Shown: piece by piece, positions 29,947-46,151 of the stretch
Layout of the letters: every line of letters begins with the position of its first letter
Position numbering within the stretch: position 1 is the stretch's first letter
From: an archaeon
GTDB lineage: Archaea; Nanobdellota; Nanobdellia; SCGC-AAA011-G17; GW2011-AR17
Length of the DNA stretch: 64,000 nt
Direction of reading: 5' to 3'
NCBI GenBank assembly: GCA_043825775.1
Contig: JBDRRK010000012.1
Coordinates: forward strand, 129,237-193,236
Program-made: the position numbers and the translations under genes
The notes under the pieces: generated by a model
The model's input: only the letters and a program-made list of their open reading frames with translations
What the model was told of the DNA's origin: nothing
Database searches by the model: none

Positions 29947-30777
29947 TTAGGGATTTAAAAGTGTATCTAATGGGCTTTTCACGTTGAGTAGTTTAGGAGT
30001 TGCTAAGTGAACATAGATCATTGTTGTTTTTGGACTTTCATGCCCTAGTAGGTTTTGTACTGTTTGTAAATCATAATTATTTTCAATTAAGTGTGTTGCA
30101 AATGAATGTCTTAATGTGTGAGGATGGACATTTTTTGTTAATTTTGCTTTTTTTGCTGCTTTTTTTATTATTACTTGTATTGTTCTTACTGAAATATGTT
30201 TTCTTTGTCCTTTGAATAGATAATTTTCAGGTTCTAGATTGTTTTCTTCTATATGTTGTTTTATTTTTTTATTTAGTTTTTTTGCGATTATGAACATTCT
30301 GTCTTTGTTGCCTTTTCCTTGTCTCACCCACCCAAAATTGTTTTTAAGTTCAAGGTGATTTACTTTTAATTTTGTTACTTCACTAACCCTTAATCCTGCT
30401 GAGTATAGAAGCTCAATCATTAGTTTATGTTTTTTGTTTTTTATTGCATTTAATAATAAGATTACTTCTTCTTGTGTTAATACTGTTGGTAGAATGTTTT
30501 TTGTTCTTGCTGGTTGTATTTCTAGTACATATTGTTTGTTTAGAATGTTTTTTAGTGTAAACTTTATTGCTTGCAATTGTAGATTTAATGTACTTTCAGA
30601 TATATTTGTTAGTGATAAGTTGTATAAATAATCTTTTATGTCTTTTTTTGTTATCTTTTTTGGTTCTTTTTGACATTTTTTAAGAAATTGTTTTATTGCA
30701 TAAGTATATGATTTAATTGTTTTAGGACTGTATTTTCTTCTTATCAATTCTTTTTGCATTTTATAGATTAAATCCAT
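29947..30777 (-). CDS. tyrosine site-specific recombinase (XerA/integrase family)
   Basis: C-terminal catalytic region HPHTLRHSFATHLIENNYDLQTVQNLLGHESPKTTMIYVHL with the R...HxxR...Y tetrad. Host-like AT-rich composition. Sits exactly at the core/accessory junction. Confidence 0.85.
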   Translation of the reverse strand: MDLIYKMQKELIRRKYSPKTIKSYTYAIKQFLKKCQKEPKKITKKDIKDYLYNLSLTNISESTLNLQLQAIKFTLKNILNKQYVLEIQPARTKNILPTVLTQEEVILLLNAIKNKKHKLMIELLYSAGLRVSEVTKLKVNHLELKNNFGWVRQGKGNKDRMFIIAKKLNKKIKQHIEENNLEPENYLFKGQRKHISVRTIQVIIKKAAKKAKLTKNVHPHTLRHSFATHLIENNYDLQTVQNLLGHESPKTTMIYVHLATPKLLNVKSPLDTLLNP

Positions 30778-31079
30778 ATTATTTATTATAAAAATAGTGT
30801 TAATAAGGTCTTATGTAGGAATTCCGGAAATCTTTCGGTAGTAACAGAAAATATAATTGTGAAGAGTTGTTTTTTGTGAGATAAAGGCTCCAGGGTGTGA
30901 ATTATGGAGACTTGCGTATATTAGGAGTTGTATACAATTAATTTTCTCCCTCCCTTTTCTTAAAATCCTTAAAATTTGAGAAATTATGGAGTTCAGTCTG
31001 TATCTTCTAAGTTATGGTCAACAGTCTATCTTTCCCACCCCGAAAATTAACTCTGCGTCGGCTCCGCCTCCTTGTCCTT

Positions 31080-31113
31080 CCCTTCGGTCAGGAGTATCCA
31101 ACATCGTTGGACG
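31080..31113. repeat. imperfect 34-bp direct repeat, copy 1 (contains palindrome TCCAAC-ATC-GTTGGA)
   Basis: cccttcggtcaggagtatccaacatcgttggacg, with a second copy at 31514-31547 (26/34 identical). A pyrimidine-rich ~25 bp upstream is also similar between the two copies. Confidence 0.6.
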
Positions 31114-31116
31114 AAA

Positions 31117-31130
31117 TAATAAACTGACCC
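31117..31130. repeat. 14-bp perfect inverted repeat, left arm (taataaactgaccc)
   Basis: Exact reverse complement of 31472-31485 (gggtcagtttatta). The two arms bracket the MazG-like gene. Confidence 0.7.
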
Positions 31131-31441
31131 TATTCAATTCCATCTAAATAGATTTTTTTAGAAAAAGTACCTCTTTCATAAGCTTTGTTTCTTCTAACTT
31201 CTTCTAATTCATTAATTGGAACACCATAGAAATCAGCTAATGCATACACAACTTCCATAACATCTGCCAATTCATTTATATCCTTTGCATCCCTAAGTTC
31301 AGCAATTTCCTCATCAAGTTTCCTCCAAAGTTCTGTTTCAAGTTCTGTATCATCCGCAAGAATATGTGTGAGGGGAGTTCTTCCACTTTCACTGATGATT
31401 TTTGGAATTCTATCTCTTACTAGTTTATTTGCCATAATCAA
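31130..31441 (-). CDS. MazG-like nucleotide pyrophosphohydrolase (all-alpha NTP-PPase)
   Basis: LVRDRIPKII ... EELADVMEVVYALA pattern of small MazG/HisE-like pyrophosphatases, at 103 aa. Confidence 0.6.
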   Translation of the reverse strand: MIMANKLVRDRIPKIISESGRTPLTHILADDTELETELWRKLDEEIAELRDAKDINELADVMEVVYALADFYGVPINELEEVRRNKAYERGTFSKKIYLDGIE

Positions 31442-31471
31442 AAGTTTAAAACTATATTTTATATGTCTTTC

Positions 31472-31485
31472 GGGTCAGTTTATTA
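31472..31485. repeat. 14-bp perfect inverted repeat, right arm
   Basis: gggtcagtttatta, partner of 31117-31130. Confidence 0.7.
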
Positions 31486-31513
31486 CTCTCCTTCACTTCG
31501 TTCAGTCGCCCTT

Positions 31514-31547
31514 CCTTTCAGTCAGGGTCGTCCAACACCGTTGGGCG
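31514..31547. repeat. imperfect 34-bp direct repeat, copy 2
   Basis: cctttcagtcagggtcgtccaacaccgttgggcg. Confidence 0.6.
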
Positions 31548-31561
31548 CAATTGGAAAATAA

Positions 31562-31774
31562 CTATCTTCTTATTCTTGGTCTCATTAATTCTTCGAGGTT
31601 GTCTTCAGCAAGTCCACGCAATATTGCACAAGTAGTTCTTCTTTTAGTAATATCTAACCTTCTTTTGTCTGAAACTACTTCTGGAACCACAGGATTTATA
31701 CCAGAATTTGCGGGTCTATAGCCAACCTCATAGTCACACAATTGCTCTTCTTTTGTAGAATAATCTGTTGTCAT
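31562..31774 (-). CDS. hypothetical small protein (internal-Met start of track ORF 31562..31957)
   Basis: The upstream part of the track ORF would run through the promoter element of the divergent gene, so the shorter MTTDYSTKEEQL... form is more plausible. Confidence 0.3.
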   Translation of the reverse strand: MTTDYSTKEEQLCDYEVGYRPANSGINPVVPEVVSDKRRLDITKRRTTCAILRGLAEDNLEELMRPRIRR

Positions 31775-31913
31775 GGGTTTAAGAAAGTCCTTGACATTAA
31801 TAATATTTGTTATTTTCCAACTGTCCAGTCGCTTCGCTCCTCGCCCAACACCCCTTTTACGACTTTTCTCGCCATAAAATATGGATTTTCTGAAAAAAAA
31901 TACCGCCTTAATA

Positions 31914-31938
31914 CACTGTCCGAAACCCGCCTTTAAAA
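31914..31938 (+). promoter_or_regulatory. archaeal BRE/TATA promoter, island family copy 1 (ccgaaacccgcctttaaaa)
   Basis: BRE-like CGAAA immediately 5' of an A/T-rich TATA box, ~35 nt upstream of ATG 31973. A GAGGAGG Shine-Dalgarno lies in between. Confidence 0.6.
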
Positions 31939-31972
31939 TGCGGAAAACACAGGACATGTGAGGAGGAAAAAG

Positions 31973-32356
31973 ATGAGAGGCACTGTTTATGACAAGATGA
32001 GGGTTTTGAAAGAAGGCCTGAAAAAGGAGTTCAAGTGGCTGAAAGATAGGGAGATGTTTGGGGCAATGTCAAAGCTAAGTTCATGGCATTACCCAAATAA
32101 AAGAACCAAGACAATGAAGCTGACAAATCAGGAGGCAATGATCTACGAGTTTCTGTTGAAGAACAACTATAATCCTTCAACCTGCTACAAGTGGATGCTT
32201 GCCTGCTGTACAAACGAGGATCTGCAGAAAAAGCTGATGAAAGGAGAAATCAGCATGAAGAAAGCAATACAGCAACCTTATGGCAAACTCTCGCAGACAG
32301 AGCAGGAATTCTTGTACCAGATAAAATTATGCATTAAAAAATATGTAATAAGGTGA
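31973..32356 (+). CDS. hypothetical protein (first gene of the integrase operon; track ORF starts at GTG 31958)
   Basis: The ATG at 31973 is preceded by GAGGAGG. Visibly G+C-richer codon usage than the host genes. Confidence 0.45.
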   Translation: MRGTVYDKMRVLKEGLKKEFKWLKDREMFGAMSKLSSWHYPNKRTKTMKLTNQEAMIYEFLLKNNYNPSTCYKWMLACCTNEDLQKKLMKGEISMKKAIQQPYGKLSQTEQEFLYQIKLCIKKYVIR

Positions 32357-33183
32357 TAAACATGAAAACAAAATATGCACAGGACAGAGGGGAGAACAAG
32401 CCCTTTACTTGTTCAAAGAAAAAGCTTCCCTATGTTCCCACAAGGGAGGAAATCTTGAAACTATTGGCTTATGCAGATGATGTTAGATTGGGATTTTCAA
32501 TATTTGTCAGTGTTTTTCAAGGTTTACGAATTGGGGAAACTGCGAAATTAAAATGGAGCAATGTTGACTTAATTAATGGCGAAATAAGAATTATTGATGG
32601 AAAAAATACAAGAAGGTATAAGTCAGGCTATGGAAAAGACAGGATAGTTCCGATAAATGAGATGTTCTTGTATATATGGAAGGCTTGGAGATTAATGAAT
32701 CCAGATCAGGAGTATGTTCTTCCAAGTGATGATAGGTTTGGAGTAAGGGCTGATTACAAGAATATAGTTAGACAGATACAGAAGAAATTGTTTAGTTCCC
32801 TGAAAAAAGCTGAATTGTTACAAGTTGATTATTATCAAAAGGATGGCAAGCCAAGATACAGATATCACACGCATTCTTTTAGGCATGTTTGTGGCACTAA
32901 CTTAAGAAGAGCTGGAATGAGGATTGAGGATATTCGAGATTTTCTTGGGCATGATGACATTGATACGACACAGGTTTACACTGAATTAACTAAAGATGAT
33001 CTAAGAGAAGTAAGCCATACTGCTTATGCTTATCCTAAAAGCAGTTTAGGATTACCTAAAGTGGAGATAAGTGTTGACAAGGAAACCTTGCTTTTACAGA
33101 GAGAGATTATTGAGAAGCAGTTGGAATTGGCAAAAATGCAGATGATTGGAAAAAGGGAGGTTGAAATCTATGCGGATATGTAA
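32353..33183 (+). CDS. tyrosine recombinase / integrase (second copy)
   Basis: HTHSFRHVCGTNLRRAGMRIEDIRDFLGHDDIDTTQVYTEL catalytic region. Overlaps the upstream ORF by 4 nt. Confidence 0.85.
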   Translation: MINMKTKYAQDRGENKPFTCSKKKLPYVPTREEILKLLAYADDVRLGFSIFVSVFQGLRIGETAKLKWSNVDLINGEIRIIDGKNTRRYKSGYGKDRIVPINEMFLYIWKAWRLMNPDQEYVLPSDDRFGVRADYKNIVRQIQKKLFSSLKKAELLQVDYYQKDGKPRYRYHTHSFRHVCGTNLRRAGMRIEDIRDFLGHDDIDTTQVYTELTKDDLREVSHTAYAYPKSSLGLPKVEISVDKETLLLQREIIEKQLELAKMQMIGKREVEIYADM

Positions 33184-33475
33184 CAACAAAAGGTATGAAA
33201 ATGAATTTGTCAAGAAGATGATTGATGAAGGACATCATTGTGAGAGAGTAGCTGGTAGTGGTTCAGGTAGAAATGCAGTTTGTGATTGTGTTTTATTTAA
33301 GGAAGGCAAGGTGTACTTAGTTGAGGTCAAGGCAACAAAAGAGAAAAAATTCTATTTTAGGGCTGGAATTAAACAGCAGTTGGACATTATGTCGAATATT
33401 GCAAGAAAGTCGAACGTTGGGGCTTTATTGGCCATCAAATTCAAACACAGAGGCTGGGAGATCATGGAATTATGA
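33170..33475 (+). CDS. Hjc-like Holliday junction resolvase (PD-(D/E)xK)
   Basis: E-x(n)-D-x(n)-EVK arrangement: HCERVAGSGSG ... DCVLFKEGKVYLVEVKATKE. Small size (~100 aa) matches archaeal Hjc/Hje. Confidence 0.55.
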   Translation: MRICNNKRYENEFVKKMIDEGHHCERVAGSGSGRNAVCDCVLFKEGKVYLVEVKATKEKKFYFRAGIKQQLDIMSNIARKSNVGALLAIKFKHRGWEIMEL

Positions 33476-33933
33476 AGATTCGTGATAGATTATTGGAGCT
33501 TTTGCAGGATTCTCCCCTGACTACAAAGGAAATACAGACAAATATTCCAGACAAGAGTAACAGGGTTTTAGCAGCAACTGTTAGCAATAATCCTGAGGTG
33601 TTTATTAGATTGGAGATGGGATTGGTTGGGTTGAAGAATAGGGATGAGCATTTGGTTACAGGGAAGAAGATAAGGCACGATAAATATTGTTTGTATAAGA
33701 AAATAGCTAATTTGTTAATTGAAAGGGAGAGAAGATTGGAAGAGTTGTATGATGCTCTTCCTGATGAGAAGATGGTTTCTATTAGGGCAAGTGTTACTCA
33801 GCATCCTGAATTGTTTTTTAGAATTGAACCTGGTGTTATTGGTAGAAGAGGAAGGGATGAGTATTTAATTGAGAAGTATAGGAGAGCAAGGAATTCTACT
33901 AAGATTCGTAGACCTAGGTTGGTGAATAGGTAA
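33472..33933 (+). CDS. protein with two tandem ~50-aa repeat domains (winged-helix-like)
   Basis: Internal duplication: LTTKEIQTNIPDKSNRVLAATVSNNPEVFIRLEMGLVGLKNRDEHL and LPDEKMVSIRASVTQHPELFFRIEPGVIGRRGRDEYL. Confidence 0.4.
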   Translation: MKIRDRLLELLQDSPLTTKEIQTNIPDKSNRVLAATVSNNPEVFIRLEMGLVGLKNRDEHLVTGKKIRHDKYCLYKKIANLLIERERRLEELYDALPDEKMVSIRASVTQHPELFFRIEPGVIGRRGRDEYLIEKYRRARNSTKIRRPRLVNR

Positions 33934-34689
33934 TTATTTTTTAGCTTGTTTCCATAAACTATCAAATAATTCCTTAAACTGTTGTGAATATGAAATATTT
34001 TCTATAAATATACAATTAGGTTCATCGAAATTGAATAAGAGTGTTATGTTGCCACAAACCATAAAATTGGATTTATCAGTTCCTTTGTGGTATCTGTATT
34101 CTTTATCATAGTTTTTGAAACTTTTTCCTTTCCTTTTTTCCTTTCCTTCCTTTGTAATAGAAGTCATGATAACTTTGGTTTTAATCCCTTTCTTTTTTGT
34201 AAGATCCATATATTTAGGCCATAAAAGTACAATATCTCTTTCTTTGCTATCATTTGCCCCATAAAGGTAGATTATTGACTTTTTATCTAATTGTTCTATG
34301 AAACTAAATAAAGCACTTCTGATTCCTTCAATACTTTCATAGACTTTCACATTACAAGATTCTTTTTTTGAATTAAATTCTTCTTCCAATTCAGGTAATT
34401 GTTTGAGGAAGGCACTTTCTTCTTGTTCAATACTAAGCTTTTTTTGTTTGATATAATCAGATATCTTTTTTGGATTTTGGGGAATATAATATTTTATATT
34501 ATTTTTAATAACAAAAGAGATTATTCCTTTGTTTGTTAACGAATCTAGAACTTGGTATATTTTGCCTGATTTAAATTTGGATTCTTTGATTATTTTACTT
34601 ACTTTTGATTCTCCTATCTTGATTAATGTAAGATAGATTATTGCTTCATTTCTTGTTAATCCAAATTTCATTAAAATTTCAGGTTTCAT
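33934..34689 (-). CDS. TrmB-family transcriptional regulator
   Basis: N-terminal HTH (LTRNEAIIYLTLIKIGESKVSKI) plus a C-terminal domain. Paralog of 36674-37429. Confidence 0.6.
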   Translation of the reverse strand: MKPEILMKFGLTRNEAIIYLTLIKIGESKVSKIIKESKFKSGKIYQVLDSLTNKGIISFVIKNNIKYYIPQNPKKISDYIKQKKLSIEQEESAFLKQLPELEEEFNSKKESCNVKVYESIEGIRSALFSFIEQLDKKSIIYLYGANDSKERDIVLLWPKYMDLTKKKGIKTKVIMTSITKEGKEKRKGKSFKNYDKEYRYHKGTDKSNFMVCGNITLLFNFDEPNCIFIENISYSQQFKELFDSLWKQAKK

Positions 34690-34784
34690 ATAATTTAGAA
34701 ATATTTTGTCATATATAAATGTTACTTTTACACTCCCCTTGAGGGGGTTTAATATTTATATAGTAATCAAAAAAGCTAATCTAT

Positions 34785-35306
34785 ATGAGAATGAGAATCG
34801 GAGAATTTGGGATAAGATATGATAGGTATAATAGAAGATATCTTGATTTTAGAGCAGATGATGTTGCTAATGATTTGATAAGATTACAACGTCTTATTCC
34901 TGAATTTAAGGATCCTCGTTCAGAAGAAGAATTATTAGATAGGTTAAGTTTAAGGTACATAAGAAGAGCTGATCTGGTAACAGCACAAGATGGTAGGGGA
35001 TTAGGACAAGATATTGGTTTTCTTTTTTCATACTCTTTTTCTGATTCTGATACTTATCTATGGTTGGGAGGAGTTGTTCCAGAGCATAGGAATAATGGTT
35101 TGATGTCAGCAATGATAGATTTTACACAAATTATTAATCCAAAAAGTTATATGAAAGTAAAGACCTACTCTGAATTTGTTAATATGCGACGATTACTTGA
35201 GGAAGAAAAATGCTTTGATCTCTTGAAAGAATCTGAGGAAAAAGATGGGAGAGTAAGTATGGAATATGTTGCTCGTTTTACTCATAATATGTTATTAGAA
35301 GAATGA
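34785..35306 (+). CDS. GNAT-like acetyltransferase (tentative)
   Basis: WLGGVVPEHRNNGLMSAMI resembles GNAT motif A. Confidence 0.35.
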   Translation: MRMRIGEFGIRYDRYNRRYLDFRADDVANDLIRLQRLIPEFKDPRSEEELLDRLSLRYIRRADLVTAQDGRGLGQDIGFLFSYSFSDSDTYLWLGGVVPEHRNNGLMSAMIDFTQIINPKSYMKVKTYSEFVNMRRLLEEEKCFDLLKESEEKDGRVSMEYVARFTHNMLLEE

Positions 35307-35702
35307 TTATTCAATTGTAACAGGAAAACCAACTTCTTTAAGAGCCTCTACAGCAATTTCAAATTTTTCTTCCCTAATCATTATATAATCTCTTGAAAAT
35401 GTTGAAACAACAAGTATATTTAATCCTTTATCAGCAATAGTTTTAGATATTTTTGCTAAGAATCCGGGTGCGAGAAAAGGAATAGAAACCTTAATCTCAA
35501 AAAGCTTGAACCATTTTACATCTTTTTCATATTTGGTATTCTTGAGATTTCCTTCTTCTGTTACAATAGTAGTTTCTGTTTCATCTTTACATATAAGAAA
35601 GTGATTTTTTATTTCAGTTTCTTCTCCTTGTAAATAAGCATATCTTCCTTTATGAACAATTACTGGACTTGCTTTTATTACTTCGTCTAATGTTGGTTCC
35701 AT
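35307..35702 (-). CDS. ACT-domain-like small protein (tentative)
   Basis: C-terminal bab-fold-like segment GFLAKISKTIADKGLNILVVSTF. Confidence 0.3.
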   Translation of the reverse strand: MEPTLDEVIKASPVIVHKGRYAYLQGEETEIKNHFLICKDETETTIVTEEGNLKNTKYEKDVKWFKLFEIKVSIPFLAPGFLAKISKTIADKGLNILVVSTFSRDYIMIREEKFEIAVEALKEVGFPVTIE

Positions 35703-35742
35703 AGAAAAAATAAAATTGTTCTATATTAAATAGTTTACTAAT

Positions 35743-36108
35743 CTATTTCTCTTTAAATTTAGAATTCTTACTAACAAACTTTCTAACACTTTTTTCAATT
35801 TTCTCATTCATATAACCAATAACAAAGACCTTTTTACTTCCAAAAATTATATCAATATTACAACCATCACAGCTAAAGTTATACCTTTCATCTACAATTT
35901 TTTTAACATCCTTTTCTTCAAGCTCTTTTTCAGCGTCTTTAACAGATGGATTCCATTTTTTGTAAACCATTTCATCTAAATGCTCAAGAAAGACATATGA
36001 AATTCCATGAATAAATTTATGTAAAAATTGTAAAATATCTTGATTTTTTTCAAATACAAAATAGGAATATCCATCTCTGTTTCCAATTGATGTAATTATT
36101 ACTGCCAT
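35743..36108 (-). CDS. hypothetical protein
   Basis: ORF only. Confidence 0.3.
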   Translation of the reverse strand: MAVIITSIGNRDGYSYFVFEKNQDILQFLHKFIHGISYVFLEHLDEMVYKKWNPSVKDAEKELEEKDVKKIVDERYNFSCDGCNIDIIFGSKKVFVIGYMNEKIEKSVRKFVSKNSKFKEK

Positions 36109-36187
36109 TTAATAAGGTAAAATCTTTGAATTTAATAGTTTTTCTCTTAAGTAAAACTTATAAAACCAAAGAAATATTCCCTTTTTT

Positions 36188-36418
36188 ATGAAAAACGAAG
36201 AAAGACCTCATTATTGTTCTGCTTGTGATTTATATGCTATTTCAGAAAGATGTTTTTTATATAGTGTAGAACAGGCAGATCCATTAATTGCTAGAGAAAT
36301 TACATCTATAACAATTGAACAAAGATGTGATGTTGTAAAAGCTCAGATTAAAAGGCAGATAAATTTAAGAGGAATATGTTTAGGTAATAATCCAGATGGT
36401 TCTTTAGAATGGTTATAG
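36188..36418 (+). CDS. hypothetical small Cys-containing protein
   Basis: ORF only. Confidence 0.25.
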   Translation: MKNEERPHYCSACDLYAISERCFLYSVEQADPLIAREITSITIEQRCDVVKAQIKRQINLRGICLGNNPDGSLEWL

Positions 36419-36673
36419 ATTTATGAATATTATTTCTAATTATAACTTAAACCTAGTAAGATATTCTCTAATATTATCCAATTCCTGCTGAATAGCTTCC
36501 CCTTCGGTTTTCTTTCCTTCTTTAATCTCTTTAAGCAAATCTTCATAACATGATTCTACAAATATCAATAATCCATTTATTGCTTTTTGACTAAATCCTG
36601 ATGGTGGCATTTTGTTTACTCCTATAATATATTTAAACCGAAAGCCTTTTATATATTATCTCCCCTGTATGGG

Positions 36674-37429
36674 GTGTATATGTATAAAGAAAAACTACAA
36701 GAATTAGGATTAACTCAAGGAGAGGCAAAGGTTTATGAGGCTTTATTAGTCTTAGGTCCTTCAACAGTTGGTCCGATTGTTAAGAAATCTAGTGTTGCTT
36801 ATTCAAATATCTATGAAATCCTTAACAGACTATTGGATAAAGGTTTAGTCAGTTTTATTGTAAAGGAAAAAACAAAATACTTTCAAGCTGAGGATATCAA
36901 TAGGATTAATGATTATTTAATTGCTCAAGAAAAAGAATTAAATGCACGAAAGCAAACTTTTAATGAACTTCAACCCAAATTAGAGAAATTAAAAGGAGCA
37001 GATAAAAAGAAAGAAGAAGCAGAGGTCTTTATTGGTGAAAAAGGACTTATGACAGCTTATGAGAAACTAATGAAAGGTTCTAATAAAAAAGATCAAGGTT
37101 ACTTTTTTTATGTTCATGATGTAGAGTATTATGAAAGAGCTGAGAAATTTTATATTAAATCTTGGCACATTCTTAGGGAATATAAAAACAAATGGAAAGG
37201 AATAAGCACTGAAGATTTTAAGAAAACTAAATTAGCTAAAAAATATCCTCCTTTTGTTAATCAAAGATATGTTTCTTTTCCTGTTCCAAGTAATATTGAT
37301 TTTATTGGAGATAAAGTTTTGATTACAACATGGAAAGAAAATCCAGTTGGGATATTAATTCATTCTAAGGAGATAGTAGAAAGTTATAAGTCTTACTTTG
37401 ATTCTGTTTGGAAGTTGGCTAAAAAATAA
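36674..37429 (+). CDS. TrmB-family transcriptional regulator (paralog)
   Basis: LTQGEAKVYEALLVLGPSTVGPI HTH. Same 251-aa length and conserved C-terminal ...SVWKLAKK as 33934-34689. Confidence 0.6.
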   Translation: MYMYKEKLQELGLTQGEAKVYEALLVLGPSTVGPIVKKSSVAYSNIYEILNRLLDKGLVSFIVKEKTKYFQAEDINRINDYLIAQEKELNARKQTFNELQPKLEKLKGADKKKEEAEVFIGEKGLMTAYEKLMKGSNKKDQGYFFYVHDVEYYERAEKFYIKSWHILREYKNKWKGISTEDFKKTKLAKKYPPFVNQRYVSFPVPSNIDFIGDKVLITTWKENPVGILIHSKEIVESYKSYFDSVWKLAKK

Positions 37430-37834
37430 TCATAACTTAACTTCTTTCCACCAATCATAATAAGGTAATAACTCCTTTAACTTTACAGTTTTATTTTTGT
37501 CTAATATAATCTCTGTGTTAAGATTGCTTTCATCTGTTTCTTTAATTAATTGTCTGCAATTACCACAAGGAGGAATTACAAATATTTTGCCTTTCTCATC
37601 TTTCCAAACAGCAACTATTTTTTTGATTTTATATTCTCCCTTTGTAATCATTGAACCAATTGCAATTTTTTCAGCACAGAAAACATTTGAACCTATATCC
37701 AAGCAAGTACCAAGATAAATTTTTCCTTTAGCAGAAACCAAAGCACAACCTACATCTGCAAACAGTCCCTCTTTTGTTTTCTTGGCTTTGATTACAGATG
37801 CTGCTTTTTTGATTAAGTTCAGATTGGTTATCAT
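37430..37834 (-). CDS. cdd: cytidine deaminase
   Basis: CAEKIAI ... PCGNCRQLI zinc-binding motifs (H/C-A-E ... PCxxC). Confidence 0.8.
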   Translation of the reverse strand: MITNLNLIKKAASVIKAKKTKEGLFADVGCALVSAKGKIYLGTCLDIGSNVFCAEKIAIGSMITKGEYKIKKIVAVWKDEKGKIFVIPPCGNCRQLIKETDESNLNTEIILDKNKTVKLKELLPYYDWWKEVKL

Positions 37835-37885
37835 AATTATTTAAGAGTTTAGCCATTTAAATCTTTTTCGTAACACCACATTAAT

Positions 37886-37910
37886 ACCTTTACCGAATCC
37901 CGCCTTTTAA
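37886..37910 (+). promoter_or_regulatory. archaeal BRE/TATA promoter, island family copy 2 (tacctttaccgaatcccgccttttaa)
   Basis: Lies ~25 nt upstream of ATG 37933 and shares the tacctt..ccgaa.cc.gc..ttta core with the copies at 43297 and 47452. Confidence 0.6.
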
Positions 37911-37932
37911 CCAAAGTAAGCACAGTGCTTAT

Positions 37933-38634
37933 ATGTTAAACAAGATTTACTGCATGGACAACCTGAAGTACCTGAAGAAGGTAAAGGATAACTCAGTTGA
38001 CCTTGTTGTTATTGACCCACCGTACAATGTGAGCCAGAAGAACAACATAAAATACAAGGACATTAACATTGTCAAGAACTTTGGTTCATGGGATTATGGC
38101 TTTGATCCTGTTCCTGTTTTGAAAGAATTAAAAAGAGTGTTAAAACCCAATGGACAGATTTATATCTTCTGTGCTACCAAACAGATTCCAATTTATATGA
38201 ATATACTTGAAGAAGAATGGTTTTTTAGGAATTTATTAGTTTGGTACAAGACAAATCCTGCTCCTAGGATGAGTAAGACTAACTTTGTGTTTGCAAATGA
38301 ATATATTCTTTATGCTATAAATGAAAAGGTTAAACCCAGTTCTGCTACTTTTAATTTTTTGGGACAGTCTTCTATGCATAACACAATCATTACTTCGGCT
38401 TTGCAAGGGAAAGAGAGATTAAAGAAAGATGGGAAGGCACTTCATCCAACCCAAAAGCCACTTTCTGTATTGAAGAAGTTGATTTCTGTATCAAGTAATG
38501 AAGATGATGTTGTGTTGGATGTGTTTATGGGTGTTGGTTCAACTGCAGTTGCTTGTAAAGAGCTAGGTAGAAACTTTATGGGCTGTGAGTTAGATAAGGA
38601 GTATGTTAGGGAGGGGAGGAAGAGATTAGACTAA
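37933..38634 (+). CDS. DNA methyltransferase (N6-adenine/N4-cytosine, beta-class; solitary)
   Basis: Motif IV VVIDPPYNV comes before motif I DVFMGVGSTAVA, as in the ParB-/CcrM-like MTase family. No adjacent endonuclease. Confidence 0.75.
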   Translation: MLNKIYCMDNLKYLKKVKDNSVDLVVIDPPYNVSQKNNIKYKDINIVKNFGSWDYGFDPVPVLKELKRVLKPNGQIYIFCATKQIPIYMNILEEEWFFRNLLVWYKTNPAPRMSKTNFVFANEYILYAINEKVKPSSATFNFLGQSSMHNTIITSALQGKERLKKDGKALHPTQKPLSVLKKLISVSSNEDDVVLDVFMGVGSTAVACKELGRNFMGCELDKEYVREGRKRLD

Positions 38635-38967
38635 TCCTGCTGATGCTCCCCAAACTATAACGCCTGCCGTAACAACTGATGAAACAATTCTTCCTATATG
38701 ATAAAAAGATTCTACCATTTTAAATTTTATTACATAAGAAGCTAAACCAATAAATCCTAAAACTGTTGCAATATTTATATACAAAACAACTAAAAAAGGA
38801 ATGCTTTGAAATATAGAAAAAAATGAAACTAATGCAATTGCATTTGCAAACATTGTTATCCTTCCAGTATAATATTTCTCAACAAGAAACCCAATAACCA
38901 TTAAAGATAAAGGGGCTAATAGATATAGCAATGTTTTGGGGAGTAGTTGTATCAGCCAAATTTCCAT
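38626..38967 (-). CDS. small membrane protein (3-4 TM)
   Basis: Hydrophobic profile. Confidence 0.35.
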   Translation of the reverse strand: MEIWLIQLLPKTLLYLLAPLSLMVIGFLVEKYYTGRITMFANAIALVSFFSIFQSIPFLVVLYINIATVLGFIGLASYVIKFKMVESFYHIGRIVSSVVTAGVIVWGASAGLV

Positions 38968-38973
38968 TCTAAA

Positions 38974-39279
38974 TTAAAACTCAGGTAAATCTCCTAAGTT
39001 ATCTTCCTCCTTGTTATTGCCTTCTGTTTTGATATACTCCTTGTCCCTTACCACAAAAATTTCTACCTTGTCTCCTTTCTTTAACTTACCCTCTTTGTTT
39101 TTATATGCAGTAATAATCTTCTTATAAGATTTAAGAAAACGAACAATATCTTCTCTCGGAAGCCTTCTCAAATTTGAAACATTAGTTCCAGTATCATCAT
39201 ATATTTCAACTTTGTTGATATGTCTCGGTTCTTTGTTGTAGTTTACCCCTACAATTATATAATCTGCCCATTTTTCCAT
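38974..39279 (-). CDS. DUF3892-like small protein (tentative)
   Basis: MEKWADYIIVGVNYNKEPRHINKVEIYDD ... pattern recalled for DUF3892. Confidence 0.35.
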   Translation of the reverse strand: MEKWADYIIVGVNYNKEPRHINKVEIYDDTGTNVSNLRRLPREDIVRFLKSYKKIITAYKNKEGKLKKGDKVEIFVVRDKEYIKTEGNNKEEDNLGDLPEF

Positions 39280-39283
39280 TTTA

Positions 39284-39568
39284 TTACCTACCTTTGTTTT
39301 TATAACCTTTTTTCCTTAGCCTTTCATTCACAGACCCATGTTTGTTAGACATTTTTCCTATTTCTCTTCCATATTTGTCTTTGCCTGTTCTTTTCCAATC
39401 TACAAACTGATTTGTTTTACCAGTCATCCCAGCTGCACTTTTTTTGGCAGTTGGTCCACCAAATTGGTATAATTCTGGAGCCCTCACATTATCTAAACGA
39501 AATCTAGTTCCATTTGCAAAAATGCCTGAATCTCCGTCATGCCATTCTTTTACTCTACGCTTTACCAT
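39284..39568 (-). CDS. short staphylococcal-nuclease (SNase)-like protein
   Basis: DGDSGIF...FRLDNVRAPE...DKYGREI resembles the SNase DGDT / RL.GIDAPE / YGR motifs. Confidence 0.45.
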   Translation of the reverse strand: MVKRRVKEWHDGDSGIFANGTRFRLDNVRAPELYQFGGPTAKKSAAGMTGKTNQFVDWKRTGKDKYGREIGKMSNKHGSVNERLRKKGYKNKGR

Positions 39569-40959: not shown

Positions 40960-41220
40960 ATGGAAAAAGAGATGGTCAATGCTATTTCATTGCTAAAATC
41001 AAGTAAATATAGATTTAAGATTACTAAAGCAATAGATAATAATACTCTTACTCCTTCTGAAATAGCAAATAAAACCCAAATAAGACTTAATCACGTAAGT
41101 ATGTTCTTGAGAGAACTAAAAGACAATAAATTAGTTAAATGCCTAAATGAAAAAAGTAGAAAAGGAAGGCTATATGAATTAACAGAACTAGGTAAAAATG
41201 CAATCAAAAAACTCAATTAA
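40960..41220 (+). CDS. small winged-HTH regulator, controller (C-protein)-like, of the restriction-modification system
   Basis: 86-aa HTH protein (LTPSEIANKTQIRLNHVSMFLRELKDNKLV) immediately upstream of and overlapping the MTase gene. Confidence 0.5.
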   Translation: MEKEMVNAISLLKSSKYRFKITKAIDNNTLTPSEIANKTQIRLNHVSMFLRELKDNKLVKCLNEKSRKGRLYELTELGKNAIKKLN

Positions 41221-42478
41221 ATTCAAAGATGAATCTTGGGACTTTAGAAAAGGTGATACCAAATACAGTAATCATGGTATTCATACTTATCCTGCTATGA
41301 TGATACCCCAAATAGCTAGAAGATTAATTGAAATGTATGGAAAAGGTTCAAAAGTAATTTTAGATCCATTTATGGGTTCTGGAACCGCTTTACTCGAAGC
41401 TACATTGCATAATAATTTTATAAAAGCTTATGGTATTGATATTAACCCTCTTGCATTATTAATTGCAAAAGCTAAAACAACACCAATTGATCCAAATAAA
41501 CTTCTTGTAGAATATAACAGATTAATCGCAGATAGTGTTAGTGAAAAAAAGAAAGTCATGTTTGAGGGAAAGAAAATTAACAAACCTAATTTTTTTAATA
41601 TTGATTTCTGGTTTAAACCTGATGTGATTACAGATTTAGCAATAATAAAAGATAGCATTAATAATATTTCTAATGAAACAACAAAAAACTTTTTCTTGGT
41701 GGCTTTTTCCGAAACTGTTAGAAATGTATCAAATACAAGAAATAGGGAATTCAAGCTTTATAGAATGAGTCCTGCAATGTTAGAAAAACATAATCCTGAT
41801 ACATTTAATGAATTCAAAGAAAGAGTCAGACTTAATTTAGCAAAGATGGATGAATTTACAAAAGAAGTAAATAAAAATTGTCAAGTAAATGTCCTTGATG
41901 AAGACACAAGAAACATCAAGTCAATAAAAGATCAAGAAGTGGATTTAATTGTTACTTCCCCACCTTATGGTGATAGTAGAACAACTGTGGCTTATGGCCA
42001 ATTTTCAAGGTTAGCTTTGCAATGGATTGGTTTTGATAAAAAAACAGTAATTGATATTGATAAAATTAGTTTGGGTGGGATTCCTACAAAAGAACTTCAA
42101 GTTAATCTAGAATCACCAACATTAAAAAAAATAATAGAAGAAATCGCAAAAGAAGATTCAAAAAGAGCAAAGGATGTCTTAAGTTTTTATGTTGATTTTG
42201 ATAAATGCATAAAAGAATTGCATAGAGTAACCAAAGATGGAGCTTATTTATGTTTTGTTGTGGGAAACAGGACAGTTAAAGGAATACAAATACCTACCGA
42301 TGATATAATTGTCGAGTTATTTAAGTCTAAAAATAATTATCAACATATTAATACCTTTATTAGGAATATTCCACATAAAAGAATGCCTAAGAAAAATAGC
42401 CCAACAAATAAGATTGGTAAACTTTCAAATACAATGAATGAAGAGTGGATTATTATTCTTCAAAAGAAAAAACATTAA
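41198..42478 (+). CDS. DNA methyltransferase (N4-C/N6-A family, alpha-type order I-TRD-IV)
   Basis: N-terminal HTYPAMMIPQIARRLIEMY ... DPFMGSGT (motif I) and VTSPPYG (motif IV) ~190 aa later. This is the PF01555-type MTase family to which M.MvaI and M.BcnI belong. Confidence 0.8.
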   Translation: MQSKNSIKFKDESWDFRKGDTKYSNHGIHTYPAMMIPQIARRLIEMYGKGSKVILDPFMGSGTALLEATLHNNFIKAYGIDINPLALLIAKAKTTPIDPNKLLVEYNRLIADSVSEKKKVMFEGKKINKPNFFNIDFWFKPDVITDLAIIKDSINNISNETTKNFFLVAFSETVRNVSNTRNREFKLYRMSPAMLEKHNPDTFNEFKERVRLNLAKMDEFTKEVNKNCQVNVLDEDTRNIKSIKDQEVDLIVTSPPYGDSRTTVAYGQFSRLALQWIGFDKKTVIDIDKISLGGIPTKELQVNLESPTLKKIIEEIAKEDSKRAKDVLSFYVDFDKCIKELHRVTKDGAYLCFVVGNRTVKGIQIPTDDIIVELFKSKNNYQHINTFIRNIPHKRMPKKNSPTNKIGKLSNTMNEEWIIILQKKKH

Positions 42479-43215
42479 AGAATAATTTCTTTCTTTTCAT
42501 AGAGTTTATCTAAATGATTTCTGGATAATCTAAATCCTGGACCATGATCTCTAACAAAGAAATTACCTTTTCCCTGAGTCCTTTCTCTAATATCCATTCT
42601 AAACTCCCAAACCATTAATCCTTCTTTTAATAAAAGTTCGAATGCTTTTTCTGTCATTTTTGTTAACAAAATAGCGCTAGAATAATTAAAATATTCGCCA
42701 TCTTTTTCCATCTTCCTAAATGCCAATACCATTAACAGGTTTTCATGTAACTTCTTCTTTAAAATAGCCATTAATTCTTCAATCTTGAAAAAAGAAACTA
42801 CTCCACCTTCTTTGTGAACAATATTCAATTTGTTATTTTCCTCATCTAATTCTAGTTTAAACCCTTGCTCATTAAATCCATCTACTTTTAGAGTTGTCTT
42901 TAATGCTTTTCTTCCTTTAATGTCTTTATAACCATATTTTTCTATTATTTGCTTTGCACTTAATGGAGACCAATGAGGAACTTTTGTAAACAAAGTAACT
43001 CTAGAAGAAGCATCAATCCTTTGTGCTTTTAATTCTACAGGTATACCATTATATGAAAGATCAGGCTCTCCAAGATTATTTTCTTTAATTCCTAGCATAG
43101 TTTCAAGAGTATATCCTATTCCAGTGTTATCTTTTCTTAAAGATTTAACAAACCCTTTATCTTTTAGTTCTTTTAACTTCTCTTTTATATCAATTTCAAT
43201 TAATCCTTCTGCCAT
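42475..43215 (-). CDS. type II restriction endonuclease, MvaI/BcnI-like (tentative)
   Basis: Convergent with the MTase and overlapping it by 4 nt. GIGYTLETMLGIKENNLGEPDL...IPVELKAQR resembles the MvaI_BcnI family N-terminal motif. Confidence 0.45.
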   Translation of the reverse strand: MAEGLIEIDIKEKLKELKDKGFVKSLRKDNTGIGYTLETMLGIKENNLGEPDLSYNGIPVELKAQRIDASSRVTLFTKVPHWSPLSAKQIIEKYGYKDIKGRKALKTTLKVDGFNEQGFKLELDEENNKLNIVHKEGGVVSFFKIEELMAILKKKLHENLLMVLAFRKMEKDGEYFNYSSAILLTKMTEKAFELLLKEGLMVWEFRMDIRERTQGKGNFFVRDHGPGFRLSRNHLDKLYEKKEIIL

Positions 43216-46109: not shown

Positions 46110-46151
46110 GAAACAAATAATTTTTTAAAGAAGGGTATTTTTTCTATAATA

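What the first reader, a model, noticed from the sequence alone, without database searches (positions are those of the whole stretch)
31562..33933. Compositionally distinct (visibly G+C-richer) insertion carrying a second integrase, an Hjc-like resolvase and a tandem-repeat DNA-binding protein
Codon composition of 31973-33933 shifts markedly toward G/C-ending codons compared with the flanking AT-rich genes (for example atgagaggcactgtttatgacaagatgagggttttgaaagaaggcctg). The block encodes a small leader ORF, a tyrosine recombinase, a ~100-aa PD-(D/E)xK Hjc-type resolvase and a protein with two internal ~50-aa repeats. This is the signature of a recent virus or plasmid-derived acquisition nested in the larger accessory region. 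Hjc-like resolvases are a hallmark of archaeal viruses and plasmids.
Basis: partly seen in the sequence, partly recalled or inferred. Interest (0 to 1): 0.6.

Follow-up and report, generated by a model that had tools for sequence, protein, structure and literature searches.

The report
DPANN recombinase–resolvase module at insertion hotspot
The G+C-richer block is real, but it is not a self-contained recent viral insert. It is one copy of a widespread, undescribed gene module of tiny DPANN archaea: a two-part DNA recombinase, a Holliday-junction nuclease, a DNA-binding protein and a DNA methylase. The module sits exactly at a spot where foreign DNA is repeatedly inserted.

Summary
Observation confirmed. 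At 31.85-33.93 kb, GC is 0.375 against 0.295 in the flanks (0 of 289 same-size windows reach it). The excess lies only at third codon positions (GC3 0.34-0.55 against a host value of 0.19±0.07). The block gives the four most deviant tetranucleotide windows. The genes are as described: a tyrosine recombinase, an Hjc-type nuclease and a protein with two winged-helix repeats.

- No att duplication flanks the block.
- It has no relatives in virus, phage or plasmid collections.
- The GC3 excess is a property of the whole family (18 of 19 loci), so it does not show recent arrival.

The block is a conserved operon: orf127, catalytic-only Xer-like recombinase, Hjc, winged-helix protein, and usually an N6/N4 methylase. 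In this window the methylase is displaced to 37933-38634. I found the operon in more than 45 DPANN contigs.

Its left edge is a precise recombination junction, TAACA|CC, at 31845-31852.
- Left of it, related loci carry tRNA-Ser, a conserved 'U' element, or inserts of 84 bp to 3.8 kb that lack an integrase.
- Pairs of loci show empty and occupied sites.
- 16 of 39 contigs break within 140 nt of it.
- This window has two such inserts. One carries a MazG-like gene.

Best reading: a resident or island-terminal site-specific recombination module with an adjacent docking site. An integron-like capture platform is not excluded.

The parts
29947..30777 (-). XerA-like tyrosine recombinase with a SAM-like N-terminal domain. 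It is context rather than part of the GC-rich block. A homologue lies 1-9.6 kb left of the module, always divergent from it, in 5 of 11 loci.
   Evidence: NCBIfam XerA equivalog 229 bits (cut-off 220). Pfam. Linkage. GC3 0.17, host-like.
31040..31110 (+). Segment A: a C/T-rich U-like arm plus core copy A (CCAACATC at 31098-31105, within the palindrome CCAACATCGTTGG). It is the leftmost junction of the insert array.
   Evidence: nhmmer U-profile hit 31042-31103. It shares CTGCGTC, GGCTCCGCCTC and CCCTTCGG with U-a of L015.
31104..31537 (-). Insert 2 (about 434 bp). It carries a MazG-like gene (31130-31441/31435) with host-like GC3 and is bounded by a perfect 14-nt inverted repeat (31117-31130 / 31472-31485).
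   Evidence: Pfam MazG-like 1.9e-5, below the cut-off. Inverted repeat, (E 0.004). GC3 0.18.
31485..31544 (+). Segment B: a U-like arm (ACTCTCCTTCACTTCGTTCAGTCG, 96% identical to the arm left of the leader in L015) plus core copy B (CCAACACC at 31532-31539, within the palindrome CCAACACCGTTGG).
31538..31850 (.). Insert 1 (about 310 bp). It has no convincing gene and is bounded by a perfect 12-nt inverted repeat (31551-31562 / 31809-31820). The ORF 31562-31957 (-) runs across the junction into the leader and is probably spurious.
   Evidence: tblastn conservation is limited to the part that overlaps the leader. No family hit.
31845..31852 (+). Core copy C (CCAACACC). It is the junction between variable left DNA and the conserved leader, and the proposed crossover region (TAACA|CC in relatives).
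   Evidence: DNA homology to L015, L018 and L019 starts at 31839-31847. The AACACC motif lies 113-147 nt upstream of orf127 in the 18 loci located by this motif; the tRNA-Ser-type loci carry CCACC in its place. Breakpoints in natural recombinants.
31853..31972 (+). Conserved leader: AACACC..AAACG, then TTTCTCG, a TCCGA motif, an A/T-rich TATA-like box flanked by a small hairpin, and GAGGAGG before the ATG. It probably contains the operon promoter and one arm of the recombination site.
   Evidence: Alignment A2. Upstream sequences of 36 loci.
31973..32356 (+). orf127: an all-alpha protein, inferred to be the detached N-terminal DNA-binding domain of the recombinase.
   Evidence: It always lies directly upstream of Int. 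132 family representatives. P0269 is a natural fusion of an orf127-like domain and the Int catalytic domain. AF2 pLDDT 72, seven helices, no PDB fold match. GC3 0.55.
32362..33183 (+). Catalytic-domain-only, Xer-like tyrosine recombinase with a conserved C-terminal coiled-coil-like tail.
   Evidence: Pfam PF00589 covers residues 31-214. R56, K81, H171, R174, H197 and Y206 are invariant. Closest solved structures are archaeal XerA and IntI4. About 100 clusters, all DPANN.
33170..33475 (+). Short (101 aa) Hjc-type PD-(D/E)xK nuclease. Its start overlaps the Int stop by 14 nt.
   Evidence: Pfam 6e-14. NCBIfam Hjc 44 bits, below the cut-off of 70. E10, D38, E51 and K53 align with the Sso Hjc catalytic residues. 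Int-Hjc fusion fragment P0102.
33472..33933 (+). Tandem winged-helix protein with two repeats. It is a truncated copy of a family that normally has three repeats (about 204 aa). Its stop abuts the stop of the convergent TrmB gene.
33934..37932 (.). Interposed host-like block: two inverted TrmB paralogues, a weak GNAT-like hit, an ACT-domain gene and a dCMP deaminase. It separates the operon from its usual methylase partner.
   Evidence: GC3 0.13-0.23. Pfam. In relatives the methylase follows the operon directly.
37933..38634 (+). N6/N4 DNA methyltransferase (type II or orphan class), the displaced fifth member of the module.
   Evidence: PF01555 9e-45. PADLOC MTase_II 4.7e-58. 94-70% identical to the methylases downstream of the module in 22 loci. 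GC3 0.39.

Best explanation
The block is one copy of a conserved site-specific recombination module that I found only in DPANN archaea.

The module is an operon with these parts:
- orf127, the detached N-terminal DNA-binding part of the recombinase;
- a Xer-like tyrosine recombinase that has only the catalytic domain;
- a short Hjc-type junction nuclease;
- a multi-winged-helix DNA-binding protein;
- usually an N6/N4 DNA methylase.

The recombination site of the module lies at the left edge of its roughly 125-nt leader (core TAACA|CC; window 31845-31852). The module marks the left boundary of a mosaic accessory region. Its core acts as a docking site where DNA segments without an integrase are inserted in tandem. 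Each insert regenerates a core copy and brings a U-like arm. This window holds two such inserts (31104-31537, with a MazG-like gene, and 31538-31850) between a residual U arm and the leader.

What is shown:
- the module and its conservation;
- the exact junction;
- empty and occupied sites in relatives;
- heterogeneity at the junction within populations.

What is inferred:
- the module's own recombinase, together with orf127, catalyses these events;
- the winged-helix protein binds the arm boxes as an architectural or directionality factor;
- Hjc resolves the Holliday-junction intermediate, or alternatively acts with the methylase as a restriction-like addiction pair.

The copy in this window is partly decayed. 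The winged-helix gene has lost its third repeat, and 4 kb of host-like DNA now separates the operon from its methylase.
For: Module conservation.
- orf127-Int-Hjc are colinear in all 45 or more loci that cover them, with the winged-helix gene in most.
- Gene boundaries overlap.
- Fusions orf127+Int (P0269) and Int+Hjc (P0102) exist.
- A methylase 70-94% identical lies downstream in 22 loci.

Junction.
- AACACC lies 113-147 nt upstream of orf127 in the 18 loci located by this motif; the tRNA-Ser-type loci carry CCACC in its place.
- Homology between the window and L015, L018 and L019 begins at 31839-31847.
- L025 and L006 share 8.9 kb at 100% identity up to ...TTTAACACCC, then drop to 50-80%.
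- L018 and L019 are identical to the right and differ to the left of TAACACC.
- L024 and L030 have unrelated left flanks but are colinear for at least 11 kb from orf127 onward.

Docking.
- L022 has U|leader, whereas L025 has the same 21 nt of U, then 3.8 kb, then the leader. The break falls at TAACA|.
- L015 has U-a, then 0.95 kb, then the leader.
- L037 and L031 have tRNA-Ser, then 84-89 nt, then the leader, flanked by 19-nt and 11-nt direct repeats.
- tRNA-Ser abuts the leader in L008, L029, L031 and L009.
- The window has three direct core copies. CCAACAYCGTTGG occurs only at 31098 and 31532 in the 64 kb.
- The U arm of segment B is 96% identical over 24 nt to the arm in L015.
- Box ACGYTGCRCTYT gives 8 of 8 hits just left of a junction in 622 kb.

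Population heterogeneity.
- 16 of 39 contigs end 11-139 nt left of the junction, where about 1.5 would be expected.

Island edge.
- GC3 is uniformly 0.09-0.26 from 1 to 30.8 kb and mosaic from 31.8 to 59.8 kb.
Against: - No experiment or read-level evidence links this recombinase to these junctions. A nearby XerA-like enzyme could be the catalyst.
- No second (right-hand) att site was found within 30 kb in the window or within 10 kb in L030. Whether the module itself moves is therefore unresolved.
- The shared core is short (5-8 nt).
- The U arms are only loosely conserved.
- The segments fold no better than shuffled sequence (z -0.4 to -0.8).
- Some empty/occupied comparisons rest on only 21-26 nt at contig ends (L022, L019).
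- The link between L006's left flank and its module comes from a co-assembly and could be chimeric. An independent JGI contig (L026) carries the same module and is identical to L025 over the 117 nt left of its junction, where that contig starts.
- The fold of orf127 has no match to known core-binding domains.
Confidence: 0.55

Rival explanations
1. Left end of one large integrative, possibly conjugative, element. The module is the attL-proximal integration cassette of an island of about 28 kb (31.85 to about 59.8 kb) that entered as a unit. The small inserts to its left are later tandem accretions at attL.
For: - GC3 is mosaic from 31.8 to 59.8 kb and host-like on either side.
- The cargo is typical of mobile elements: T4SS pilin and a VirB4-like ATPase (43.5-50.5 kb), MvaI-type restriction-modification genes, a PIN toxin-antitoxin pair, an orphan methylase and an extra TFIIB.
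- T4SS homologues also follow the module in L004 and in L034/L035.
- tRNA-Ser directly abuts the leader in one clade, as at a classical tRNA-int island end.
- L024 and L030 share at least 11 kb to the right but nothing to the left.
Against: - No attR or core repeat was found in the 30 kb to the right in the window, nor any tRNA 3' repeat within 10 kb in L030.
- Right-flank content differs widely between loci: core ThrRS and tRNA-Thr in L018, defence genes in L054.
- In L018, core genes lie between the module and the methylase.
- No relaxase or replication gene was recognised.
- T4SS clusters in reduced-genome symbionts are often chromosomal and non-conjugative (PMC12102498).
Confidence: 0.25
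2. A recently acquired, self-contained virus- or plasmid-derived insertion of about 2.4 kb (31562-33933), flanked by att duplications and nested in an older accessory region.
For: - There is a sharp GC3 and tetranucleotide anomaly confined to the operon.
- The gene content, integrase plus Hjc plus a DNA-binding protein, is typical of mobile elements.
- Module proteins are 82-83% identical to L015, whereas the adjacent XerA is only 55% identical.
Against: - No direct repeats occur at the two ends.
- The right end is a gene truncation.
- The GC3 excess is family-wide.
- No virus, phage or plasmid relatives were found.
- The methylase partner lies outside the proposed insert.
- The linkage to xerA is conserved.
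- Cluster sizes are small, with no sign of recent spread.
Confidence: 0.07
3. A vertically inherited cellular system: a second Xer-like recombinase with its own Hjc, acting at a dif-like chromosomal site next to xerA. The inserts would be IMEX-like hitch-hikers. The high GC3 would reflect expression or recombination-driven bias rather than foreign origin.
For: - The module is single-copy per contig.
- The catalytic domain is closest to XerA.
- A divergent xerA-like gene lies within 10 kb in 5 of 11 loci.
- The family-wide GC3 offset tracks host GC.
- There is long colinearity with DNA-repair-type genes on the right in one clade.
- In L024 an essential operon (AspRS-GatCAB) starts 6 nt from the junction.
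Against: - Left neighbours are unrelated between clades: tRNA-Ser, AspRS, U, xerA.
- There are only about 100 clusters at 90% identity, and no annotation as a core gene.
- The core is not a dif-like 11-6-11 palindrome.
- The module is associated with an orphan methylase and defence-type neighbours.
- The window copy is decayed, which an essential system would not tolerate.
Confidence: 0.08

Closest known systems
SNJ2-type integrase operon of haloarchaeal pleolipoviruses (Int + Orf2 + Orf3; PMC5861418)
   Same: - An archaeal tyrosine recombinase is encoded in an operon of overlapping genes together with small accessory proteins, one of them a winged-helix DNA binder.
- A tRNA gene is the target: tRNA-Met there, tRNA-Ser in one clade here.
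- Short core direct repeats occur: 14 bp there, 5-19 bp here.
- The accessory proteins are needed for integration rather than excision (shown for SNJ2, only inferred here).
   Different: - There is no detectable sequence relationship.
- The recombinase here is catalytic-domain-only and Xer-like, with a detached N-terminal partner.
- It is coupled to an Hjc nuclease and a methylase.
- It was found in DPANN, not haloarchaea, and no virus genes are attached.
- Integrase-less inserts accumulate next to it.
Integrons (IntI + attI + attC cassettes), including the archaeal integrons of Ghaly et al. 2022 (PMC9668308)
   Same: - A resident tyrosine recombinase has a primary recombination site immediately upstream of its own gene.
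- The inserted ORFs in this window (the MazG-like gene and the doubtful orf131) read divergently from the recombinase operon; that integron cassettes are usually arranged this way is from my own recollection.
- Small integrase-less inserts lie in tandem, separated by repeated imperfect sites.
- The sequence of the insert-terminal inverted repeats varies while their placement is conserved.
- A MazG-like gene sits in one insert. That this is a common integron cassette type is from my own recollection and was not tested.
   Different: - The recombinase lacks the IntI-specific additional domain (TIGR02249 59.8 bits against a cut-off of 265).
- The sites do not fold as attC-type R''-L''/L'-R' hairpins (z about -0.5), and the conserved boxes are placed differently.
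- Inserts range from 84 bp to 3.8 kb, and several are non-coding.
- At most two or three inserts are seen per locus.
- Hjc, the winged-helix protein and the methylase have no integron counterpart.
XerA/dif and IMEX elements (integrative elements exploiting Xer)
   Same: - The catalytic domain is closest to archaeal XerA (4A8E, 5HXY).
- A xerA-like gene is often nearby.
- Integrase-less elements accumulate in tandem at one site, as IMEXs do at dif.
   Different: - The junction keeps a fixed distance to this module, not to xerA.
- The canonical N-terminal domain is absent.
- The core is not dif-like.
- The enzyme scores 81 bits against a cut-off of 220 for the XerA equivalog model.
Classical tRNA-targeting genomic islands and ICEs with a terminal integrase
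   Same: - The integrase module lies directly next to a tRNA 3' end in one clade.
- The neighbours are accessory and defence genes.
- T4SS genes lie downstream in three loci.
   Different: - No right-end repeat was found.
- The recombinase architecture and the Hjc coupling are unusual.
- Other DNA is inserted between the tRNA or U element and the integrase module.

Membership tests
Tyrosine recombinase superfamily (Phage_integrase, PF00589) | Catalytic domain with the R-K-H-R-H/W-Y residues | tested here: met
   PF00589 1.5e-23, 83.9 bits against a cut-off of 27.1. R56, K81, H171, R174, H197 and Y206 are invariant in 21 family members.
Archaeal XerA (NF040815 equivalog) | Full-length match above the curated cut-off, including the N-terminal SAM-like core-binding domain | tested here: not met
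   81.2 bits against a cut-off of 220. The match covers only model positions 89-262. No SAM-like domain is present. The neighbouring gene 29947-30777 does meet the test (229 bits).
Integron integrase IntI (TIGR02249) | IntI-specific additional domain around patch III, and a score above the cut-off | tested here: not met
   59.8 bits against a cut-off of 265, matched in two short stretches only.
Integron (system) | attC sites: imperfect palindromes of 57-141 bp that fold as single strands with paired R''/R' and L''/L' boxes | tested here: not met
   Segments A and B fold no better than shuffles as ssDNA (z -0.43 to -0.79). RYYYAAC and GTTRRRY-like boxes are present but only 3 nt apart. No dedicated attC model was available.
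Integron (system) | Tandem array of integrase-less cassettes next to the recombinase gene, each ending in a recombination site | tested here: inconclusive
   There are two inserts in the window and one each in L015, L025, L031 and L037. No long arrays were seen, and several inserts are non-coding.
Archaeal Holliday junction resolvase Hjc (PF01870 / NF040854) | Hjc-fold PD-(D/E)xK domain with the catalytic E-D-E-K residues | tested here: met
   PF01870 6e-14, 52.2 bits against a cut-off of 21.1. E10, D38, E51 and K53 align with S. solfataricus Hjc.
Archaeal Holliday junction resolvase Hjc (PF01870 / NF040854) | Equivalog-level, full-length (about 135-145 aa) cellular Hjc | tested here: not met
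   NF040854 44.2 bits against a cut-off of 70. The protein is 101 aa and lacks the C-terminal 35-40 residues. Junction-cleaving activity cannot be tested here.
   No repeat links about 31.55 kb and about 33.95 kb. The core repeats all lie to the left (31098, 31532, 31845).
   IMG/VR gives one hit at 28% identity. INPHARED and PLSDB give 33% or less, all bacterial. Hjc has no phage hit. PHROGs returns only generic integrase and resolvase families.
tRNA-targeting integrative element | Integrase module adjacent to a tRNA 3' end, with the tRNA 3' segment duplicated | tested here: inconclusive
   In relatives, tRNA-Ser abuts the leader (L008, L009, L029, L031), and L037 and L031 have 19-nt and 11-nt repeats. 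In this window no tRNA is adjacent, and no distal repeat was found.
SNJ2-type recombination system | Sequence membership in the IntSNJ2 family with Orf2/Orf3 homologues | not tested
   No SNJ2 sequence was compared directly. The 108 homologues found are all DPANN or bacterial Xer-like. The resemblance is architectural only (PMC5861418).

The most novel reading that the evidence does not exclude
The module is a non-IntI, integron-like DNA-capture platform of DPANN archaea.
- A resident split tyrosine recombinase docks circular, integrase-less DNA (84 bp to several kb) at a fixed core next to its own promoter region.
- The operon's own Hjc nuclease resolves a half-completed (single strand-exchange) Holliday junction. 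In integrons that step is left to replication.
- The triple winged-helix protein reads the three conserved arm boxes.
- An outward promoter in the leader can express what is captured. In L024 the AspRS-GatCAB operon starts 6 nt from the junction.
Probability: 0.2. Interest if true: 0.85.

Novelty: new variant of a known kind. Interest (0 to 1): 0.6.

Why it matters
DPANN archaea have tiny genomes and depend on hosts. How they acquire and shuffle genes is poorly understood. The 2021 review of archaeal tyrosine recombinases (PMC8371274) does not mention DPANN or Hjc at all.

This locus exposes a widespread family: about 100 recombinase clusters, found only in DPANN. The recombinase is split into two genes and is hard-wired to a junction nuclease, a multi-winged-helix protein and a methylase. 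Its recombination site can be read directly from natural empty and occupied sites.

If the enzyme assignments hold, the locus gives three things:
1. a defined, testable att site and protein set for a new archaeal recombination system;
2. a marker for integration hot spots and assembly breakpoints in DPANN metagenome-assembled genomes;
3. possibly a first case in which a tyrosine recombinase carries its own Holliday-junction resolvase.

It also cautions against reading a GC3 anomaly as 'recent acquisition', because here the anomaly is a stable family trait.

Tried and rejected
The repeat finder, blastn-short and pattern searches found none.
- **A structured RNA in the GC-rich non-coding segments.** Rfam gave nothing at gathering or E-value thresholds, in the window and in 10 loci. 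Folding was no better than shuffles. UUCG-like hairpins looked suggestive but did not hold up. The U element behaves like a set of short conserved boxes, not a fold.
- **The palindrome CCAACAYCGTTGG as a universal core.** It is absent from all other loci. Only (T)AACAC(C) is general.
- **Virus or plasmid origin.** IMG/VR, INPHARED and PLSDB gave nothing close.
- **HARE-HTH identity of the winged-helix repeats.** My initial impression was not supported by Pfam. Foldseek gives generic tandem winged-helix matches.
- **Defence-system membership.** PADLOC hits only the methylase, plus a weak PDC-M29B hit for Hjc.
- **A right-hand att site.** No GC-rich or C/T-rich non-coding island exists elsewhere in the window. 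No tRNA 3' repeat occurs downstream in L030 or L009.
- **A conserved dif-like element next to xerA.** None was found.
- **Other contexts for the MazG-like insert or for orf127.** Exact look-ups found only this genome.
- **An empty-site relative of this particular host** (xerA joined to TrmB).

Full report

The window is an A+T-rich (about 30% GC) archaeal sequence. It carries IF5A, a wyosine-synthesis radical-SAM enzyme and TrmB regulators. The identical proteins are deposited as 'MAG: archaeon', and relatives are labelled Woesearchaeota or Nanoarchaeota.

- GC rises to 0.35-0.40 between about 30.9 and 33.95 kb, against 0.26-0.30 around it.
- The stretch 31845-33933 has GC 0.375 against 0.295 in the flanks. 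No other window of that size in the 64 kb reaches it (0 of 289).
- The excess is entirely at third codon positions. GC3 is 0.55, 0.34, 0.40 and 0.37 for the four genes, against 0.19±0.07 for 69 other genes. GC1 and GC2 are normal.
- The four most deviant tetranucleotide windows of 207 all lie here.

The gene calls also hold.
- There is a tyrosine recombinase (PF00589, 1.5e-23) with a complete R-K-H-R-H-Y set.
- There is an Hjc-type nuclease (PF01870, 6e-14) whose E-D-E-K residues align with S. solfataricus Hjc.
- There is a 153-aa protein with two internal repeats (36% identity, E 4e-12). It is predicted as two winged-helix domains (pLDDT 83) and matches generic tandem winged-helix proteins in the PDB.

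Two corrections are needed.
- The high GC between 30.9 and 31.97 kb comes from three C/T-rich non-coding segments. The MazG-like gene among them has host-like GC3 (0.18).
- The minus-strand ORF 31562-31957, which sets the finding's start coordinate, is probably not a gene. It crosses the junction described below, and only its leader-overlapping part is 'conserved'.

**2. What is it? A conserved module.**

The recombinase has about 100 relatives (clusters at 90% identity). They share 40-82% identity with it, are 264-289 aa long, and all come from DPANN-type MAGs or metagenomes. Similarity then drops abruptly to about 31% with bacterial XerD.

In every one of the 45 or more loci I fetched that cover the region, the order is orf127, Int, Hjc, usually followed by the winged-helix gene. 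The genes overlap or nearly touch: the Int stop and Hjc start overlap by 14 nt, and Hjc and the winged-helix gene share ATGA.

*The recombinase.*
- Int has only about 30 residues ahead of its catalytic domain, so it has no core-binding domain.
- Its catalytic domain is closest to archaeal XerA and IntI4 among solved structures.
- It fails the XerA and IntI equivalog models by a wide margin (81 against 220 bits; 60 against 265 bits).

*orf127.*
- It is an all-alpha protein with 132 family representatives, almost all stand-alone and 120-150 aa long.
- One distant member, P0269 (421 aa), is a fusion of an orf127-like domain to an Int-family catalytic domain that carries the family signature GYGKDRIVPI.
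- I take that fusion as the best available evidence that orf127 is the recombinase's detached N-terminal domain.
- Its fold has no PDB match, and it shows no profile similarity to XerA N-terminal domains.

*Other members.*
- A fragment, P0102, fuses the Int C-terminus to Hjc.
- The winged-helix family normally has three repeats (about 204 aa). The window's copy, and that of its closest relative, have lost the third.
- In the window the gene ends exactly where a convergent, host-like TrmB gene begins (33933/33934).

*A fifth member.*
- The N6/N4 methylase at 37933-38634 is 94-70% identical to methylases that follow the module in 22 loci, often immediately.
- It is even better conserved than Int and shares the high GC3 (0.39).
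- In the window it is separated from the operon by 4 kb of host-like genes, GC3 0.13-0.23.

**3. The left edge is a recombination junction.**

All loci share a leader of about 125 nt upstream of orf127. In 18 loci its left edge is the motif AACACC(C/G)NNAAACG, 113-147 nt from the ATG. The tRNA-Ser-type loci have CCACCAAAACG at the same place. DNA homology between the window and its closest relatives begins at 31839-31847.

Left of the edge, sequences are unrelated between loci.
- In one clade it is the 3' end of a tRNA-Ser gene (L008, L009, L029, L030, L031, L037, L038).
- In L024 and L057 it is the start codon of AspRS, 6 nt away.
- In many loci it is a loosely conserved C/T-rich 'U' element with boxes CCTGCGTCATAC, ACGYTGCRCTYT and CACTTCGTTC. 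The second box occurs 8 times in 622 kb, always just left of a junction.

Natural recombinants pin the breakpoint.
- L025 and L006 are 100% identical for 8.9 kb up to ...GAGTTTAACACCC, then only 50-80% identical.
- An independent JGI contig (L026) carries L006's module and is identical to L025 over the 117 nt left of its junction, where the contig starts.
- L018 and L019 are identical to the right of TAACACC and differ to its left.
- L024 and L030 share nothing on the left but are colinear for at least 11 kb from orf127 onward.

Assemblies stumble here. Of 39 contigs whose left end is near the module, 16 end 11-139 nt left of the junction, about one assembler k-mer. Roughly 1.5 would be expected if ends were spread evenly over 3 kb.

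**4. DNA is inserted at that junction.**

Several loci show an 'empty' arrangement, U|leader or tRNA-Ser|leader. Others show the same left element separated from the leader by an insert.
- L022 starts with TTGCAGAAAAAACGTATAACA|CCCGCAAAACG. L025 has the same 21 nt at 5604-5624, followed by 3.8 kb with four ORFs and no integrase, then ...GAGTTTAACA|CCCGCAAAACG.
- L015 has a complete U at 8455-8535, then 0.95 kb, then the leader.
- L037 and L031 have tRNA-Ser, an insert of 84-89 nt and a repeated tRNA 3' end (19 and 11 nt) before the leader.

The window fits this pattern with two inserts.
- Three direct copies of the core CCAACAYC lie at 31098, 31532 and 31845. The first two sit inside CCAACAYCGTTGG, which occurs nowhere else in the 64 kb.
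- The cores delimit a 434-bp insert with the MazG-like gene and a 310-bp insert.
- The arm left of core B is 96% identical over 24 nt to the arm left of the leader in L015. Inserts in different genomes therefore carry homologous arms.
- Each insert also has a perfect terminal inverted repeat (14 and 12 nt) at equivalent positions relative to the cores. I cannot explain this feature.

**5. What the block is not.**

- No repeat links its two ends.
- No right-hand att site was found in the 30 kb to the right.
- There are no close relatives in IMG/VR (best 28%), INPHARED or PLSDB (33% or less, all bacterial). Hjc has no phage hit.
- The GC3 excess is not specific to this genome. The module exceeds its host in 18 of 19 loci by +0.11 on average, across hosts with GC3 from 0.15 to 0.41 (total GC). 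It is a family trait and does not date the acquisition.
- A divergent xerA-like gene lies 1-9.6 kb to the left in 5 of 11 loci with enough flank (window, L013, L015, L025, L036). That is far more often than chance would give for a gene normally present once per genome.

**6. Context.**

From 1 to 30.8 kb, GC3 is uniformly host-like. From 31.8 to about 59.8 kb it is mosaic. That region carries:
- a T4SS pilin and a VirB4-like ATPase;
- an MvaI-type restriction-modification pair;
- a PIN/UPF0175 pair;
- SET, radical-SAM and HD genes;
- a high-GC3 TFIIB.

Homologues of the T4SS genes also follow the module in L004 and in L034/L035. The module is therefore the left edge of the accessory region rather than something nested inside it.

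**7. Mechanism.**

*Shown:*
- the module;
- the exact junction;
- tandem inserts with regenerated cores;
- variability at the junction within populations.

*Inferred:*
- orf127+Int catalyse recombination at the core next to their own promoter.
- The winged-helix protein binds the arm boxes as an architectural or directionality factor. The proven precedent is the wHTH Orf3 of the SNJ2 integrase operon (PMC5861418).
- Hjc, translationally coupled to Int, resolves the Holliday-junction intermediate.

The alternative role for Hjc is a small PD-(D/E)xK nuclease paired with the conserved methylase as a restriction-like stabilising pair. I put the junction-resolution reading at about 40% and the restriction-like reading at about 30%. 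The data do not decide whether the module is a long-term resident docking platform or the attL end of a large island. I favour a resident or terminal module with a docking site (0.55) over a single 28-kb ICE (0.25).

**8. Comparison and novelty.**

- The module works most like an integrase operon with accessory proteins (SNJ2 type). In its left-hand behaviour it resembles an integron or an IMEX array.
- It is a member of none of these: the IntI, XerA and attC tests were not met, and SNJ2 membership was not tested.
- The 2021 review of archaeal tyrosine recombinases does not mention DPANN or Hjc.
- A full-text search for integrase + Hjc + DPANN found nothing.
- I rate it a new variant of a known kind, interest 0.6.
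- The integron-like capture reading has a probability of about 0.2 and would deserve 0.85 if true.

Noticed in passing
window 43451-50532: A T4SS-like cluster: a TrbC/VirB2-type pilin (43735-44070), a 680-aa ORF, a DUF362/4Fe-4S protein and a 1010-aa VirB4/TraC-like ATPase with a PrgI-like N-terminus. GC3 is moderately raised (0.30-0.34). Homologues lie downstream of the module in L004 and in L034/L035.
   Followed up: partly
window 41198-43215: An N6/N4 methylase (426 aa) lies convergent with an MvaI/BcnI-family restriction endonuclease. This looks like a complete type II restriction-modification pair.
   Followed up: no
window 58730-59759: A TFIIB homologue (262 aa) and the small ORF before it have the second-highest GC3 in the window (0.43-0.48). 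It may be an element-borne transcription factor near the right limit of the mosaic region.
   Followed up: no
window 33934-34689 (-) and 36674-37429 (+): Two 251-aa TrmB-family paralogues in inverted orientation, both ending ...W K x A K K, bracket the host-like block that separates the operon from its methylase.
   Followed up: no
window 55024-56090: An UPF0175 antitoxin-like gene followed by a PIN-domain gene, a likely toxin-antitoxin pair inside the accessory region.
   Followed up: no
L025 5698-5911 and 9276-9437: Patchy perfect inverted repeats (17, 15, 13 and 10 nt), including an inverted core-like ACACCCC, flank a 3.4-kb segment inside the 3.8-kb insert. The segment could be invertible.
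   Followed up: partly
L024 about 9430-9445; L057 5483-5567: The start codon of the AspRS-GatCAB operon lies 6 nt from the junction, so the promoter of an essential operon must sit inside the module's leader. This suggests the leader carries an outward-facing promoter.
   Followed up: no
L015 8537-8638: Directly right of the U-a core lies a 102-nt nested hairpin (stems of 11 and 12 bp with a 32-nt one-sided bulge). It folds far better than shuffled sequence (z -3.3 to -4.0). Contig L016 breaks inside this region.
   Followed up: partly
window, whole: The octamer CCAACAYC occurs 10 times against 1.9 expected (0 of 100 shuffles reach 10). Seven of the copies lie outside the locus, apparently inside genes by their coordinates (not checked gene by gene).
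   Followed up: no
window 38626-39568: A 113-aa ORF, a DUF3892 gene and an SNase gene lie on the minus strand directly after the methylase. The 113-aa ORF and the SNase have 57-60% homologues in the same position in L023, and an SNase also occurs near the methylase in L015. They may belong to the extended module.
   Followed up: partly
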